A stretch of 64,000 nt of DNA from Candidatus Aenigmatarchaeota archaeon. Its GTDB lineage: Archaea > Aenigmatarchaeota > Aenigmatarchaeia > PWEA01 > JACQIF01. The stretch spans positions 640,001 to 704,000 of the forward strand of contig CP066684.1 in NCBI GenBank assembly GCA_016432325.1, in the 5' to 3' direction. Below the pieces are notes generated by a model. That model did no database searches, had not been told where the DNA came from, and worked only from the letters and a program-made list of their open reading frames with translations. Positions within the stretch are counted from its first letter, which is position 1. Every line of letters begins with the position of its first letter. This document shows, piece by piece, positions 3,110-43,232 of this stretch. A program made the position numbers and the translations under genes.

Positions 3110-3793
3110 GAATTGGAAGCATAATAGGGTCTTGTCTGCGGAAGAGTCGTCCCGACTCGCCCAACCGCAAACATATCAGAGTACCCGGCTGAAGTGACTG
3201 TTCGGTCGCGGTGTGTTGAAAAGGACAAGATGTGTTTTCTAGACCCTGATGGTTTCGGGAAGAGAGTTAGCAAGATAGAGAAAGTTAGCTATGCCGTTTG
3301 AATATGCAAAACGCTTCTGTGAGAAGCGCGCATCTAAAACGGCCCAATAACAAGTTCGGATCCCGACCACAAGTCGGGGTTTTAGGCTGAAAAGACAGCG
3401 ATGATCGCAAAATCGTAAGTATGTTACTTACGGGGTCTGAGAGTTGTCGGGAACATAGGCGACAGTGAGTATGTGAATACCCAAAGACCGTGCCTTCTTC
3501 CGCCATCAAGGTGGAAGACTAACCGATTGTGGAATCGTTGGAAAGCGCGGGATGATTGTTTAGGAAATGATACGAGTCGCAAAACTGCTTCGCAGCAGTC
3601 TGGCTGATACCTCTGCCAGTTGCGTGGAACGCGCGATGTTCCGCTTGAAGTTCCTCATTATTCGTAAAGATGACGCCGTGCAAAGGTCCCATATTGAAAC
3701 ACAGGTTTCAAGATTTTCTGGTAAACAGAAAACTTGAGACAAGGTTTCAAGAAAAACACTTGAACAAATCAAGGTTCGATAGACCATGTTCGT
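3110..3793 (+). ncRNA. Long structured 5' leader of the 23S rRNA transcript, including the 5' strand of the processing stem
   Basis: TTAAATA near 3090; more than 10 hairpins; 3675-3690 is perfectly complementary to 7090-7105; about 3731-3791 pairs with about 6987-7070. Confidence 0.6.
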
Positions 3794-5403
3794 AAAGCTA
3801 CGCCGGCTGGTGGATGGCTTGGCTTGGGAGCTTAAGAAGGTCGTGGCAAGCAGCGATATGCTCGGGGTAGGCGCAAGTAGCCTTTGAACCCGAGATTGCC
3901 TAATGCGACTTCGCTTCCTCTTCGGAGGAAGGTCCGTAAGGACAGGGAACCCGCTGAATTGAAGCGTCTTAGTAAGCGGAGGAAGAGATACGAGAGTATG
4001 CCGTCAATAGGGGCGACCGAACGCGGCACAGGGCGATCCGAATCGCTCCAGAAATGGAAGCGAGATGTGGCGCGCACGCATTTCTTAACCGCGCGAGCGG
4101 AAGTGGACTGGAACGTCCCGCGACAAAGGGTGATAGCCCCGTACGCGAACCGCGGAAGAAAATTGTGCGCAGAGAGTACGGCTCCCCGGATACGGAGTCG
4201 GAAGACGGCGCGAACCAAGCGCCAACCCTAAACACTACCCAAGTCCGATAGTGAATTAGTATAGTGATAGAACGCTGAAAAACAGGGGTAACACCCGGTG
4301 AAAAGAATCTGAAGCCAGTCGGTTATAGTCAGCTCGGGGCCCGCAAGCCGCAAGGCGGGGTCCCGGCGTCCGTTTCGAAGAACGGGGTAGGGAGTTCATT
4401 TCAGTGGCGAGGCTAAGTCTCTTGCGAGACGGAGCCGAAGCGAAAGCGACTAGCGCGCAGGCAACGAGGCGCGCCGTGCGAAAGCGCGGGGAGTCACTGG
4501 GATGAGACCAGAAGGGCGTTGATCTATTCCTGGGCAGGGTGAAGTCGAGCGAAAGCTCGACGGAGGCCCGCCTCCGGTGTTGTGCTACGCATTCGGGCGA
4601 CCTGGGAATAGGGGTGAAAAGCCAATCGAAACGCCAGATAGCTGGTTCCTCTCGAAATGAGTTATAGCTCAGCCTCGGCGGAGACGTCATGCGGGGTAGA
4701 GTTACTGATTGAGGAGCAAAGGCGGGAAACTGCCAGCTCCGCTGTCAAACTCCGAATCCGTGTGAGTCGTAGAAGCCGGGAGTGAGTGCACGTGGATTAA
4801 GTTCGGTGCACGAAAGGGAGACAACCCAGACTGTGGTTAAGGTCCCTAAATATCTGCTAAGTCGGGAAGGTGGTCTCCAACCCAAAACAGCGGGGAGGTA
4901 GGCTTAGAAGCAGCCACCCTTTAAAAAGTTCGTAACAGATTACCCGTCTAGGTTGGGGGCGCTGAAAATGGACGGGGGTAAGCAGATTACCGATACCACA
5001 GACTACGTCTCAAGACGTTAGGTGTAGAGAGGCATGCCGCGGGGACAGAAGCGGGGGCGAAAGCTCCTGTGGACCCTGCGGTAAGGAAAATCCTACTGGT
5101 AGTAGCAGCGAACGTGGGTGAGAATCCCACGCGCCTTAAGGGCCAGGGTTCCTCGGCTCTGTAGATCAACCGAGGGTAAGCCGATCCTAACGCGTACCTT
5201 AACCGAGTACGCGGAAAGGGAAGCCGGTTAATATTCCGGCGCCACTGGCGGTTCATGTCGTTCAGGAAGCCTCAGGGTATGCCGAGTATGGCTGTCGCCT
5301 TATCGGATGTGCGAAACTGATGGAGTTTCGTAAGGAAGAGAAGTTGGCGAATCGCATTCGGCCGCTCGTACGAGCGGTTCGGCAAACCCCCGGGGCCGGT
5401 GAA

Positions 5404-5454
5404 AGCATATGAAAATCGCCGCGATTTTCTATTATCCGGCGCATATGCCACCAG
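5404..5454 (+). other. 23S BHB intron 1 (51 nt)
   Basis: GGTG-AA|A ... CACC-AG|A with GCATATG/CATATGC stem; splicing restores CCGGTGAAAGA. Confidence 0.85.
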
Positions 5455-5766
5455 AGACTGGACGATTATACCGCCGTGTCCGTACCCAAAACCGATACAG
5501 GTGCCCCTCGATGAATAGTCGAAGGCGTTGGGACAATCCAGGTCAGGGAAATCGGCAATTTAGCCCCGTACGTTCGCTATAAGGGGTGCCTGCCCTCGTG
5601 TGCTTGCATGCGAGGGCAGGTCGCAGTGACAAGGAGGAACCGACTGTTTAACAAAAACGTAGCCGGCTGCTAGATCGAAAGGTTGTGAATAGCCGGTGAG
5701 GCCTGCCCAGTGCCGGTGTGTCAAAGTTGGTTTCAACCGACCTAAGCCCCGGTAAACGGCGGCGAT

Positions 5767-5814
5767 AACGAACAAAAGCCGAGCTTTTGAAATTTCGGCG
5801 ACGTTCGTCGCCAA
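5767..5814 (+). other. 23S BHB intron 2 in helix 69 (48 nt)
   Basis: GGCG-AT|A ... CGCC-AA|A with ACGAAC/GTTCGT stem; splicing restores GGCGAT AACTCTG ATCGTC. Confidence 0.9.
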
Positions 5815-5841
5815 AACTCTGATCGTCTTAAGGTAGCGTAA

Positions 5842-6016
5842 ACATTGGCTCATCTAGTAACTCTGACTAGAGAGCAAGTTTGCTACTTTAAGAGTCTTCG
5901 TGCAGAAGACGGTTAGACGCTGTTTATTGGGAGACATATCGCACGGGCAACTCTTCGCACTCTGACAAAAGTGCGACCTTCAAGGGCAGTTTACAGGGAA
6001 TGAGCCAATGGCGCAA
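5842..6016 (+). other. 23S BHB intron 3 (175 nt, no ORF)
   Basis: GCGT-AA|A ... GCGC-AA|T with 11-bp CATTGGCTCAT/ATGAGCCAATG stem; splicing restores GGTAGCGTAATCCCTTGTCG. Confidence 0.92.
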
Positions 6017-6603
6017 TCCCTTGTCGATTGAATGTCGACCTGCATGAAGGGCTTAACGAGTTCCCCACTGTCCCGACCTGGAGGCCAGCGAACCTGCCAT
6101 TCAAGTGAATAAGCTTGAGACCCCTGAAGGGAAGAGGAGACCCCGTAGAGCTTTACTGCAGCCTGATGCTGCTGTACGGTTTCTTTTACAGAGCGTAGGC
6201 GGGAGCCTTCGAAGCGTTTTCTCCGGAAGACGTGGAGGCGCCAATGGAACACCGCCTATTAGAGACCGTACGGCTTACGCGCTTGCGCGGACACCATCAG
6301 GTGGGCAGTTTGACTGGGGCGGTACGCTGTTGAAAAGGCATCAACAGCCCCCTAAGCTCAGCTCATCCGGGTCGGAAATCCGGAGTAGAGTGCAAGAGCA
6401 AAAGCTGGGTTGACTGGACCCCGAACAACGACGGGTCCAGAGGCGAAAGCCGGGTCTAGCGAAACTCTGTGTGCGCATTGGTAGCGCCCAGAGATATGAG
6501 AAAAGTTACCTCGGGGATAACCGGGTCGTAGTGGCCGAAAGCCCACATTGACGCCACGTGTTGCTACATCGCTGTCGGCTCATCTCCTCCTGGCTGTGCA
6601 GCA

Positions 6604-6638
6604 AGACTTTTAGGAGAAGAATCCTACTGGTTCTGCAT
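6604..6638 (+). other. 23S BHB intron 4 in the helix 91 loop (35 nt)
   Basis: GCAG-CA|A ... CTGC-AT|G; splicing restores CCTGGCTGTGCAGCAGCAGCCAAGGG. Confidence 0.88.
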
Positions 6639-7171
6639 GCAGCCAAGGGTGAGGGTGTTCACCTATTAAAGAGGTACGTTAGCTGGGTTCAGAACGTCGT
6701 GAGACAGTTTGGTCTATATCTTTCAGGGGTGTTTAGTGCCTGAGGGGAAGGAAGGATTAGTACGAAAGGAACATCCTTTCGACGCCACTGGTTTACCTGT
6801 TGTCCGACCGGGCATTGCAGGGCAGCTACGCGTCAATCGATAAGGGCTGAAAGCATCTAAGCTCGAAGCGATCCTCAAAAAGAGGCACACGGCTCTCTTA
6901 GAAGAAGAGTTTGATAGGCATGGGGTGTAAGCGCGAAGCCTCGGCGACGCGTTCAGCCCGCGTGTACTAATCGCCGGAATTATCTTGAACATGGTTTATC
7001 ACAAACCTTGAGTTCAAACAGCGGTAGCTTCGGCTATCGTCAGAGTGTTTTCCTGAACATTGTTTCGGGTTTGCGGCATTCGCCGCAAAGGGACCTTTGC
7101 ACGGCATAATTATTTTCGTTTAACATCCGTTCAGCCCGGGCTATTTATTCCGGTTTCTCTAAAATCCATAT

Positions 7172-7724: not shown

Positions 7725-8261
7725 ATGCACCCGAAGTTCCCCGAAGAGGTCGCGTATCTCGGCGGTCTTCTGAGAAGCAGCAGGCTCGTCAAGAACGGCG
7801 AGGATTTTGAGATACACATGGAACACGAGCGCGAGTTTCTGGAAGCCGTTGATGCGGTCCTGAAGAACAAGGTGGGCGGCAAGTACAAAACCGAAGGAAA
7901 CAGGCTCGTAATCCACGGCGCGGACCTGTTTGACGTGCTCGTCACGTTCTTCGGTCATCCCGACGAGAACGGCCGCTGGGCCCTGACACAGGAGATACGC
8001 GACGGACGTCTCGAACACAGGCGTGCGTTTTTGCGCGGGCTCTTCGATTCGATGGGTTCCCTGGACAAGACGCTCGTGATGAAGTACGGCTGGCACAAGG
8101 ACGATTTGAAAGAAATCTCCGGCCTGCTCGCGGATTTCGATGTCAAGCACTCTGTGAAAGGGAACGAACTGCACGTCCGTGACCTGCGAACGTTCGCTTC
8201 GCGCATCGGAACTCTCAGGCCTTCTCACGAGAAGAGGCTGGCAGCTGTTCTCGCCGGATGA
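7725..8261 (+). CDS. Free-standing LAGLIDADG-like domain protein, degenerate
   Basis: EEVAYLGGLL and AFLRGLFDSMGS helices; C-terminal F..RIG...P.H..RL pattern. Confidence 0.65.
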   Translation: MHPKFPEEVAYLGGLLRSSRLVKNGEDFEIHMEHEREFLEAVDAVLKNKVGGKYKTEGNRLVIHGADLFDVLVTFFGHPDENGRWALTQEIRDGRLEHRRAFLRGLFDSMGSLDKTLVMKYGWHKDDLKEISGLLADFDVKHSVKGNELHVRDLRTFASRIGTLRPSHEKRLAAVLAG

Positions 8262-43041: not shown

Positions 43042-43136
43042 GTTGGCGCCCCCGGTGATGCACACTTTTTAAGAAAAAGTGTGGGCAAAAAACGACGTCC
43101 GTGCGACCTAAGATATAGAGGTTGGCGCCCCCGGTG
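43042..43136. repeat. 16-bp direct repeat of the tRNA-Arg 3' end flanking a type-A hairpin element (43061-43093)
   Basis: GTTGGCGCCCCCGGTG at 43042-43057 and 43121-43136. Confidence 0.85.
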
Positions 43137-43232
43137 GGATTCGAACCCACGACCCCTTGCTTAGGAGGCTTGCACGCCTTGAACCGAGATCCAAAAACAA
43201 AGTGCTCTGAATCCAAACTGAGCTACGAGGGC
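43123..43232 (-). tRNA. tRNA-Arg(CCU) with one intron at 29/30 (43170-43199); CCA encoded
   Basis: GCCCTCG/CGGGGGC acceptor; BHB GCAC-TT|T..GTGC-AA|G restores CTTGC CT CCT AA GCAAG. Confidence 0.92.

What the first reader, a model, noticed from the sequence alone, without database searches (positions are those of the whole stretch)
5842..6016. ORF-less 23S intron with antisense tracts to both flanks of helix 69 and a helix-69 mimic
Seen: intron 5881-5893 pairs with 23S 5826-5838 (13 bp), 5906-5917 pairs with 5818-5829 (12 bp), and 5918-5931 pairs with 5748-5761 (14 bp). All 7 differences from the exact reverse complement are C>T or A>G, so each still pairs as G-U. That pattern points to selection on RNA pairing rather than a decaying inverted duplication. 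The tracts bracket the upstream H69 intron (5767-5814). The intron also has CTAGT-AACTCTG-ACTAG (5854-5870), the exact spliced H69 loop with the same closing pair. A weaker CGAC..CAAGGG..TTAC near 5974-5994 resembles the antisense of its own splice junction. Established: H69 forms bridge B2a, and some archaeal introns encode guide RNAs (tRNA-Trp C/D guide). Inference: this intron RNA could be a splint or chaperone that unfolds H69 and orders splicing, a modification guide or decoy, or a targeting RNA for intron spread. I do not know a described precedent.
Basis: partly seen in the sequence, partly recalled or inferred. Interest (0 to 1): 0.92.

Follow-up and report, generated by a model that had tools for sequence, protein, structure and literature searches.

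The report
Exon-gripping intron in archaeal 23S rRNA
A small enzyme-spliced intron in the only 23S rRNA gene of a tiny (Aenigmarchaeota) archaeon carries about 70 bases that can pair back onto the ribosomal RNA on both sides of its own splice site, probably as a built-in folding aid, and a catalytically dead descendant of the nuclease once encoded at this intron site now sits just behind the rRNA gene.

Summary
The 175-nt bulge-helix-bulge intron (5842-6016, after about E. coli A1938) has five antisense tracts tiling 5881-5949. Four are collinear and pair with the domain IV core strands while skipping local hairpins; two of them close a predicted zero-linker four-way junction with the splice site on one arm. 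No shuffle matched this. A sister-lineage intron (L035, exons about 90% identical) keeps the tracts, an H69-loop hairpin and the internal helices. The '7 of 7 G-U' argument is circular; L035 gives independent but modest support (p about 0.001-0.08). L035 lacks the H69 intron, and C/D and H/ACA features are absent, so splice ordering and modification guiding are unlikely. New: ORF 7725-8261 is a conserved LAGLIDADG with both catalytic acids lost; its closest relative lies inside an intron at this same site, and it also follows the 23S that overlaps L035. Best reading (about 45%, inferred): a cis RNA splint that delays H68-H70 folding until its own splicing, possibly helped by that protein as a maturase. 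This scan earlier noted exon-pairing or guide-bearing rRNA introns on other DNA; I found no published precedent. No RNA data were obtained.

The parts
3786..6989 (+). Host 23S rRNA gene, single copy in the genome, interrupted by four BHB introns
   Evidence: Rfam RF02540; one copy by blastn of G000
5842..6016 (+). 175-nt ORF-less BHB intron after about E. coli A1938; removal restores the sequence of intron-less relatives
   Evidence: same site occupied in about 30 other introns
5836..5839 (+). Exon strand of the 4-bp BHB central helix (pairs with 6011-6014), followed by a 3-nt bulge
   Evidence: sequence; kept in L035
5843..5853 (+). 5' strand of intron terminal stem P1 (pairs with 6000-6010); one A-U to G-C compensation in L035
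5854..5870 (+). H69-loop mimic hairpin; L035 has the same loop (1 mismatch) on a different stem at the same place
   Evidence: P 0.0002 (window), 0.002 (L035)
5881..5893 (+). Tract A, antisense to 5826-5838 (about 1923-1935); covers the intron's own BHB exon strand, so it excludes the spliceable fold
5895..5905 (+). Tract B (new), antisense to downstream exon 6040-6050 (about 1962-1972); alternatively pairs with tract F (helix P3) or in a local hairpin 5894-5910; identical in L035
5906..5917 (+). Tract C, antisense to 5818-5829 (H69 loop end and 3' strand, about 1915-1926)
5918..5931 (+). Tract D, antisense to 5748-5761 (H68 3' strand, about 1893-1906)
5933..5949 (+). Tract F (new), bulged antisense to 5704-5722 (H68 5' strand, about 1834-1852); also the 3' strand of internal helix P3
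   Evidence: L035 equivalent
5956..5975 (+). Hairpin P4, three compensated pairs and a similar 8-nt loop in L035
6000..6014 (+). 3' strand of P1 and of the BHB central helix
5767..5814 (+). Upstream 48-nt BHB intron in the H69 loop (after about U1911), bracketed by tracts C and D; absent in L035
7725..8261 (+). 178-aa two-motif LAGLIDADG (I-DmoI fold) with both catalytic acids replaced; conserved behind the 23S in this lineage; closest relative is encoded inside an intron at the 1938 site; candidate trans maturase

Best explanation
The element is a protein-spliced (EndA/RtcB) BHB intron that has become a cis-acting RNA splint and folding switch for its own insertion site. SHOWN by sequence comparison and folding models: five tracts can pair with the strands that build the base of H68, H69 and H70; B and C are contiguous and loop out 1927-1961, which folds into two hairpins with no unpaired linker, one of them the 4-bp exon-exon arm that carries the splice junction; B and F can instead pair with each other (P3), which would pull the intron off the rRNA. 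INFERRED: during transcription tracts A, C, D and F capture the upstream exon and stop domain IV from folding over the splice site; once the downstream exon appears, B binds the strand that would otherwise take the BHB exon strand into H70, A is released, the BHB forms on the arm of the four-way junction and is cut, the splint holds the two exons for ligation, and P3 then releases the excised intron. The switch is uphill by about 30 kcal/mol in nested models, so it needs either a pseudoknotted state or a protein. The dead LAGLIDADG behind the 23S, descended from the ORF of an intron at this site, is the obvious candidate maturase (speculative; about 25%). The tracts most likely arose as inverted copies of flanking DNA and were then trimmed and kept by selection.
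For: Tracts far beyond shuffles and specific to the flanks (z 8.4, 66). Independent homologue L035, sister to G000 (exons about 90% identical): chain score z 3.5, cofold -16.9 against -3.9 +/- 2.5, 45 of 50 positions pair, substitutions concentrated opposite G/U (13 of 28 against 3 of 22, Fisher p 0.014). Internal helices P1, P3 and P4 show compensatory changes. The same four-way junction is the cofold minimum for both introns; only 18 of 1896 possible loop-outs have no linker. A second, differently built intron family at this site has antisense strands ending at the same two boundaries (L012, L036, L041, L046, L048, L060). Nuclease-encoding introns at the site have no tracts (L032, L047 z -0.5; L135 by inspection). 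Dead LAGLIDADG: closest relative among 1.8 billion representatives lies inside a 1938 intron (E 9e-34), purifying selection (60-69% amino-acid identity with 56-74% of four-fold sites different), and it follows the 23S contig that overlaps L035 at 100% over 130 nt. EndA and RtcB are present.
Against: Only two family members, from one lineage, so no real covariation test; the pairing-retention p value rises to 0.03-0.08 if nearly all substitutions are transitions, and whole-intron RNAduplex for L035 is no better than shuffles. Many 31-57 nt introns at the same site lack tracts and are presumably spliced, so a splint is not generally required. In nested models the exon-paired state beats the BHB state by 29.7 kcal/mol (L035 16.4; 30 other introns 0-15.2), which looks more like a trap than an aid unless resolved. 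Pairing 50 or more bases from inside a closed intron loop is topologically demanding. For the second family the exon pairing is weak and not the cofold minimum in several members. Intron and dead gene co-occur in one lineage only, which is a single event.
Confidence: 0.45

Rival explanations
1. Relic of template-switch mutation: inverted (and one direct) copies of flanking DNA filled the intron after it lost its ORF; exon pairing is a tolerated by-product and only the intron's own helices are selected.
For: Template switching makes reverse-complement copies of nearby sequence in rRNA genes (PMC8794818). Collinearity of B-C-D-F fits one inverted copy with deletions, and hairpin-coding segments delete easily. 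All targets lie within 140 nt. Transition bias alone explains part of the G-U pattern.
Against: Tracts survive in a lineage with about 10% exon divergence and near-saturated silent sites in the linked gene; tracts C and D lie in an unpaired loop of the free intron, yet stay complementary; changes avoid positions opposite C and A; a 30 kcal/mol competitor of splicing in a single-copy essential gene should be purged if useless.
Confidence: 0.17
2. Splicing brake or checkpoint: the exon-paired state deliberately blocks splicing and H69 folding until a protein (the dead LAGLIDADG or a helicase) releases it, which either regulates 50S maturation in an episymbiont or makes the host dependent on the escaped ORF.
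For: Tract A covers the BHB exon strand, and bases 5872-5875 can sequester the 5' strand of P1 in both homologues. These two introns have the largest BHB penalty of 32 tested. The dead gene is conserved and linked in both hosts.
Against: No expression data; nearest-neighbour models ignore pseudoknots; tract B and the four-way junction favour, rather than block, the exon arm of the BHB.
Confidence: 0.12
3. Targeting RNA for spread: the excised circle binds intron-less 23S rRNA in trans, presents the 1938/1939 junction in the loop of the four-way junction and is re-inserted by reversal of the EndA/ligase reaction.
For: Trans binding to spliced rRNA is favourable (-24.3 kcal/mol) and puts the junction in an exposed loop; G opposite the variable exon position 1920 lets the tract pair with both alleles found in the phylum; the nuclease of this lineage is dead, so homing by cleavage is lost.
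Against: No reverse transcriptase or TnpB found in G000 (90% complete); the family was found only in two sister lineages, with no sign of spread among 371 genomes of the phylum; reversal of RtcB ligation is not established.
Confidence: 0.1
4. Modification guide or decoy for H69 (2'-O-methylation or pseudouridylation), like the pre-tRNA-Trp intron guide.
For: Fibrillarin, Nop5 and Cbf5 are present. Other introns at the 1928 and 1938 sites in this phylum show D'/C'-like boxes next to a short antisense to the C1920 region. The order of tracts C (3' flank) then D (5' flank) matches a pseudouridylation pocket, with U1911 in the loop-out.
Against: No box C with up to 2 mismatches; both CUGA motifs lie in hairpin loops away from tracts. 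No K-turn stem between C and D; 8 nt are looped out, and U1915/U1917 are paired, whereas they must be unpaired to be modified (PMC7075261). No Rfam match. No CCG in either loop-out, so an ac4C guide does not fit.
Confidence: 0.08
5. Splint that unfolds H69 to present the upstream H69 intron's BHB and so orders the two splicing events.
For: In this genome C and D end almost exactly at the ends of that intron's BHB and would block the competing H69 stem.
Against: L035 keeps the tracts without the H69 intron; H69-loop introns exist without a tract-bearing neighbour (L021, L053, L073, L086, L095); tracts A, B and F are not explained. It may be a secondary use here.
Confidence: 0.08

Closest known systems
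Archaeal BHB rRNA introns (Desulfurococcus mobilis I-DmoI intron; Staphylothermus, Pyrobaculum; ORF-less hairpin and 'partial, remnant, uncharacterized' classes of Jay and Inskeep 2015, PMC4496867)
   Same: 4-bp helix with two 3-nt bulges, terminal stem, conserved rRNA site, mix of LAGLIDADG-coding and ORF-less introns at one site.
   Different: That survey describes no exon-complementary tracts; here about 70 nt pair with both exons and compete with the BHB.
Box C/D guide in the intron of euryarchaeal pre-tRNA-Trp (own knowledge)
   Same: A BHB intron that pairs with its own host RNA.
   Different: No C or D boxes, five tracts rather than two, and no predictable target nucleotide.
Processing/chaperone snoRNAs such as U3 (PMC3608112; U8, U14, snR10, snR190 from own knowledge)
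   Same: Several antisense tracts that would hold pre-rRNA strands apart and prevent premature folding.
   Different: Encoded inside the rRNA it acts on, no snoRNP motifs; that review states that U3-like RNAs are absent in Archaea and that non-modifying roles of archaeal sRNPs are speculative.
Group I internal guide sequence (P1/P10) and group II EBS-IBS pairings (own knowledge)
   Same: Intron sequences that pair with both exons and align them.
   Different: Those introns are ribozymes with 5-7 nt pairings at the splice sites; this one is cut by EndA, and its tracts stop 12 and 23 nt from the junction.
LAGLIDADG maturases I-AniI and bI3 maturase (PMC2647301, PMC2813881); WhiA as a domesticated LAGLIDADG
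   Same: Homing-endonuclease fold with reduced or lost cleavage, kept by selection and tied to an intron.
   Different: Known maturases help mitochondrial group I introns fold; none found reported for a BHB intron or as a free-standing archaeal gene. RNA binding is untested here.
Collaborative homing, free-standing endonuclease plus ORF-less intron (PMC13565253; Pog.S1205/S1213)
   Same: ORF-less intron with a nearby separate LAGLIDADG gene.
   Different: The gene here has lost both catalytic acids in all six relatives, so it cannot drive homing by cleavage.

Membership tests
Archaeal BHB rRNA intron | 4-bp central helix flanked by two 3-nt bulges at the exon-intron junctions | tested here: met
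   5836-5839 with 6011-6014; bulges cut after the second base; kept in L035. Exon-exon helix is relaxed (4 bp plus a 2x1 loop).
Archaeal BHB rRNA intron | Removal restores the conserved rRNA sequence of intron-less relatives | tested here: met
   Identical to L003 after removing 5767-5814 and 5842-6016
Archaeal BHB rRNA intron | Host encodes EndA and RtcB | tested here: met
Archaeal BHB rRNA intron | Excised in vivo, usually as a circle | not testable with these tools
Box C/D guide sRNA | Box C (RUGAUGA) and box D (CUGA) forming a K-turn or K-loop | tested here: not met
   No C box with up to 2 mismatches in the window intron
Box C/D guide sRNA | 10-12 nt antisense directly upstream of a D or D' box | tested here: not met
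   CUGA at intron positions 22 and 121, neither after a tract
H/ACA guide sRNA | Bipartite pocket under a K-turn stem leaving the target U (UN or UVUN) unpaired | tested here: not met
   C and D are contiguous with no upper stem; 8-nt loop-out; U1915 and U1917 paired (rule)
H/ACA guide sRNA | Single-stranded ACA/ANA 14-16 nt from the target U | tested here: not met
   The conserved ACA at 5993-5995 is over 60 nt from the C/D tracts and partly paired in P2
Group I intron (IGS) | Catalytic core P3-P7 and Rfam group I match | tested here: not met
   No Rfam family other than LSU rRNA at E up to 10; group I introns of relatives (L022, L026) look different
Active LAGLIDADG homing endonuclease (ORF 7725-8261) | Two-motif I-DmoI-like fold | tested here: met
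   pLDDT 86.5; best Foldseek hits I-DmoI, E 1.4e-7, TM 0.63
Active LAGLIDADG homing endonuclease (ORF 7725-8261) | Catalytic Asp/Glu at the end of each motif | tested here: not met
   RDG to RSS/RKS/RNG and DAEG to DSMG/DAFG/DALG/DAMG/DAFA in all six family members
LAGLIDADG maturase | Binds its cognate intron RNA and promotes splicing | not testable with these tools
   Only descent from an intron ORF at this site, linkage and purifying selection were shown
RNA-guided nuclease system (TnpB/omega RNA) | TnpB-family gene in the host and a guide matching target DNA | tested here: not met
   PF07282 not found in G000, 90% complete; G-U-rich single-strand pairing points to an RNA target

The most novel reading that the evidence does not exclude
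A two-part system derived from one homing intron: the intron RNA became an antisense splint that holds ribosomal domain IV (H68-H70, bridge B2a) open, and its former nuclease ORF, now dead and free-standing behind the 23S, acts in trans as a maturase that switches the RNA into the spliceable form. It would be the first RNA chaperone of rRNA folding in Archaea, the first maturase for a protein-spliced BHB intron, and a possible control point for 50S maturation.
Probability: 0.25. Interest if true: 0.92.

Novelty: new variant of a known kind. Interest (0 to 1): 0.74.

Why it matters
Archaeal rRNA introns are treated as nuclease carriers or inert hairpins, and a review lists functional non-coding RNAs from them, and non-modifying RNA chaperones of archaeal pre-rRNA, as open questions (PMC3608112). 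Kjems and Garrett's 1991 title already pointed to conformational changes needed for splicing (cited there; paper not held). This locus gives a small, fully synthesisable test: a roughly 400-nt precursor, two enzymes and one 178-aa protein. If right, it shows how a selfish intron at a functional centre solves the conflict between BHB formation and ribosome folding, how a homing endonuclease is domesticated after losing its active site, and it parallels both spliceosomal exon alignment and eukaryotic chaperone snoRNAs.

Tried and rejected
Rfam: no small-RNA family at E up to 10 or in L035. My recollection of a 'partial repeat' class of archaeal introns was wrong: Jay and Inskeep's class is 'partial, remnant, uncharacterized'. 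More family members were sought and not found: exact/2-mismatch B-C motif in 371 phylum genomes gave chance hits only; the 14 viral-contig hits are not rRNA; a degenerate B-C pattern, meant to find a stand-alone guide in intron-less relatives, matched at control level and almost all inspected hits lay in long ORFs, none in rRNA. PMC50826 is not held. Whole-intron RNAduplex does not separate L035 from shuffles. The first BHB-forced energies (47 and 35 kcal/mol) used a stricter constraint; I quote the milder. The junction-antisense element at 5974-5994 and the second H69-like 8-mer in P4 are not conserved and were dropped. Complex prediction was not used (no protein-protein claim).

Full report
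Setting. The window belongs to an 875-kb single-contig genome. A same-genus gene is labelled Candidatus Aenigmarchaeota and pattern hits in the phylum are titled Aenigmatarchaeota. Rfam places one 23S gene at 3786-6989, the only copy in the genome. Comparison with intron-less relatives shows two insertions 27 nt apart: 5767-5814 in the H69 loop and 5842-6016. Both have a 4-bp helix and two 3-nt bulges, and EndA and RtcB are encoded. E. coli-equivalent numbers below come from my own alignment to the E. coli sequence as I know it and are approximate; the intron lies after about A1938.

Observation. The three reported tracts are present as described. A systematic scan adds tract B (5895-5905 with the downstream exon 6040-6050), and folding of the precursor adds tract F (5933-5949 with 5704-5722). 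So 5881-5949 is almost fully tiled: A (about 1923-1935), B (1962-1972), C (1915-1926), D (1893-1906), F (1834-1852). B, C, D and F are collinear with the reverse complement of the spliced rRNA and skip 1927-1961, 1907-1914 and the upper part of H68. Four tracts of at least 11 bp covering 50 nt were never reached in 2000 shuffles (mean 0.12 tracts) and other 23S windows give at most one. The H69-loop hairpin has a shuffle frequency of 0.0002.

Homologues. Scans for introns at this site gave about 30 distinct sequences. One, L035 (Ga0209542_10123050, 250 nt), is a true homologue; its 23S is sister to G000 (support 100/99) with about 90% identity outside the two introns. With tract positions fixed from the window, 45 of 50 still pair in L035; 11 of 15 substitutions keep pairing (p 0.0008 at the exon transition fraction of 0.6, 0.007 at 0.75, 0.08 if all are transitions), and differences fall at 13 of 28 positions opposite G or U but 3 of 22 opposite C or A (Fisher p 0.014). 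A collinear antisense score gives z 8.4 for the window, 3.5 for L035 and at most 2.4 for 19 other introns. Cofolding with spliced rRNA gains 24.3 and 16.9 kcal/mol, beyond all 100 shuffles each; a cruder duplex test does not separate L035 from shuffles. Internal helices P1, P3 and P4 carry compensatory changes, and an H69-like loop sits on a different stem at the same place. This is moderate evidence for selection on both the intron's fold and its exon pairing, limited by n = 2. L035 has no H69 intron, which argues against splice ordering as the main role.

Architecture. B and C are contiguous, and the 35 nt they loop out fold into a 4-bp arm that holds the splice junction plus H71, with no unpaired linker: a perfect four-way junction, which is the cofold minimum in both homologues. 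Only 0.9% of possible loop-outs are linker-free. In the precursor that arm is the exon-exon helix of the intron's own BHB. In the mature ribosome 1930-1935 pairs with 1962-1970 (H70; own knowledge), so B removes the competitor of the BHB exon strand. Tract A does the opposite, covering that strand, and overlaps C by four bases. B can also pair with F (P3) or form a local hairpin. The sequence therefore encodes at least three states: upstream-exon-paired, four-way junction, and free intron. In nested models the exon-paired state is 29.7 kcal/mol below the BHB state (L035 16.4; 30 other introns 0-15.2). Because the gene is single-copy and must be spliced, the cell must get past this, by a pseudoknot that the models cannot show or with protein help.

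Parallels at the same site. A second family (L012, L036, L041, L046, L048, L060) has a covarying stem enclosing one strand antisense to 1912-1926 and one to 1962-1967: the same two boundaries from a different architecture, though the pairing is weak. Short introns at 1928 and 1938 show D'/C'-like boxes beside an antisense to the C1920 region. Nuclease-coding introns at the site have no tracts. Exon-directed sequence is thus a recurring feature of ORF-less introns here, in line with unchecked earlier notes of this scan on other DNA.

Not a known guide. There is no box C, the CUGA motifs do not follow tracts, there is no pocket or K-turn between C and D, and the H69 uridines that must be unpaired for Cbf5 (PMC7075261) are paired. 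Rfam finds nothing. TnpB and reverse transcriptase were not found in the 90% complete genome. No stand-alone version was found in 371 genomes of the phylum.

The linked protein. ORF 7725-8261, 735 nt behind the 23S on the same strand, aligns over its whole length with the LAGLIDADG of an active-looking 1938 intron (25% identity, E 4e-15) and folds like I-DmoI, but both catalytic acids are replaced in it and in all its relatives. Four orthologues at 57-63% identity exist; those with enough flank lie behind a 23S 3' end; four-fold sites differ at 56-74% while proteins stay 60-69% identical. Among 1.8 billion representatives its closest outside relative is P0007 (E 9e-34), which is encoded inside a BHB intron at exactly the 1938 site with exon flanks of this order's type, is also dead, and has no tracts (L135); the next hit is again a 1938-intron enzyme (L136). 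In the GTDB phylum only G000 and G001 have the free-standing form. Contig L192 from a sister sample overlaps L035 at 100% over 130 nt, including a lineage-specific intron, and carries the gene 165 nt after the 23S. So both known hosts of the tract-bearing intron appear to carry the escaped ORF. This is one evolutionary event, and the L035-L192 link is across contigs. The implied series, active enzyme in the intron, dead ORF in the intron, ORF-less tract-bearing intron plus free-standing dead gene, is an inference. Maturase activity has precedent in I-AniI and bI3 but is untested; protection of the DNA site is an alternative.

Mechanism and odds. Best reading (0.45): a cis splint and folding switch that keeps domain IV open, presents its own BHB on a four-way junction, holds the exons for ligation and lets go through P3, possibly with the dead LAGLIDADG as maturase. 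Rivals: template-switch relic (0.17; mechanism in PMC8794818, and probably the origin of the tracts in any case), splicing brake (0.12), targeting RNA for re-insertion (0.10), modification guide or decoy (0.08), ordering of H69-intron splicing (0.08). All functional steps are inferred from sequence and folding models; no RNA data were available.

Novelty. It is a member of the BHB rRNA intron class by every feature that could be tested. Literature searches found no description of extended exon-antisense tracts in such introns or of a dead, escaped LAGLIDADG tied to one; the library lacks most subscription papers, and the 1991 Kjems and Garrett paper on conformational change could not be read. 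I class it as a new variant of a known kind, interest 0.74; the two-part splint-plus-maturase reading (probability 0.25) would deserve 0.92.

Noticed in passing
window 7725-8261 (+); L129, L130, L192: Catalytically dead two-motif LAGLIDADG gene conserved behind the 23S; closest relative lies inside a 1938 intron.
   Followed up: yes
L135:38-759: BHB intron at the 1938 site with an intact 196-aa LAGLIDADG ORF lacking both catalytic acids: a possible intron-encoded maturase in an archaeon.
   Followed up: partly
L012, L036/37/39/42/46, L041, L048, L060 (introns at 1938): Second ORF-less family: covarying stem enclosing strands antisense to 1912-1926 (one mismatch near 1918/1919) and to 1962-1967; L041 and L048 add a further antisense to 1964-1971; L041 also has a D'/C' loop after an antisense to 1906-1916.
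   Followed up: partly
L085, L086, L090, L095 (intron near 1928); L044, L087, L096 (intron at 1938): Short introns with a D'-like then C'-like box directly after an antisense to the H69 3' strand; the fifth-base rule points to C1920. Likely intron-borne methylation guides.
   Followed up: no
L034, L040, L053, L055 (44-47 nt introns): Hairpin loop is a contiguous two-part antisense to both strands at the base of H68 (about 1899-1906 and 1833-1839); L034 chain score z 2.4.
   Followed up: partly
window 5797-5812: The H69 intron has an internal 6-bp hairpin that copies the exon's BHB strand and competes with its own BHB.
   Followed up: no
window 5860-5867 with 5912-5917: The H69-mimic loop could pair with tract C; one position changes in step between the window (G-C) and L035 (A-U). 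Possible self-sequestration of the tract; n = 2.
   Followed up: partly
window about 5405-5455 and 6604-6638: Two further short insertions in the 23S; simple hairpins in isolation. L035 has different sequences at both sites.
   Followed up: partly
L022, L026, L136: Group I-like introns with LAGLIDADG ORFs in the H69 3' strand of relatives, so four or five intron sites crowd into 30 nt.
   Followed up: no
L191:1-400: This contig matches L035 only in its 3' part (87.6% overall), so it may be a chimeric rRNA assembly.
   Followed up: partly
window 43126-43232 (-): tRNA gene of 107 nt, so probably intron-containing.
   Followed up: no
G000:C1:406386-407777: RtcB lies in a 608-aa open frame, longer than the usual protein; possible insertion or fusion.
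   Followed up: no
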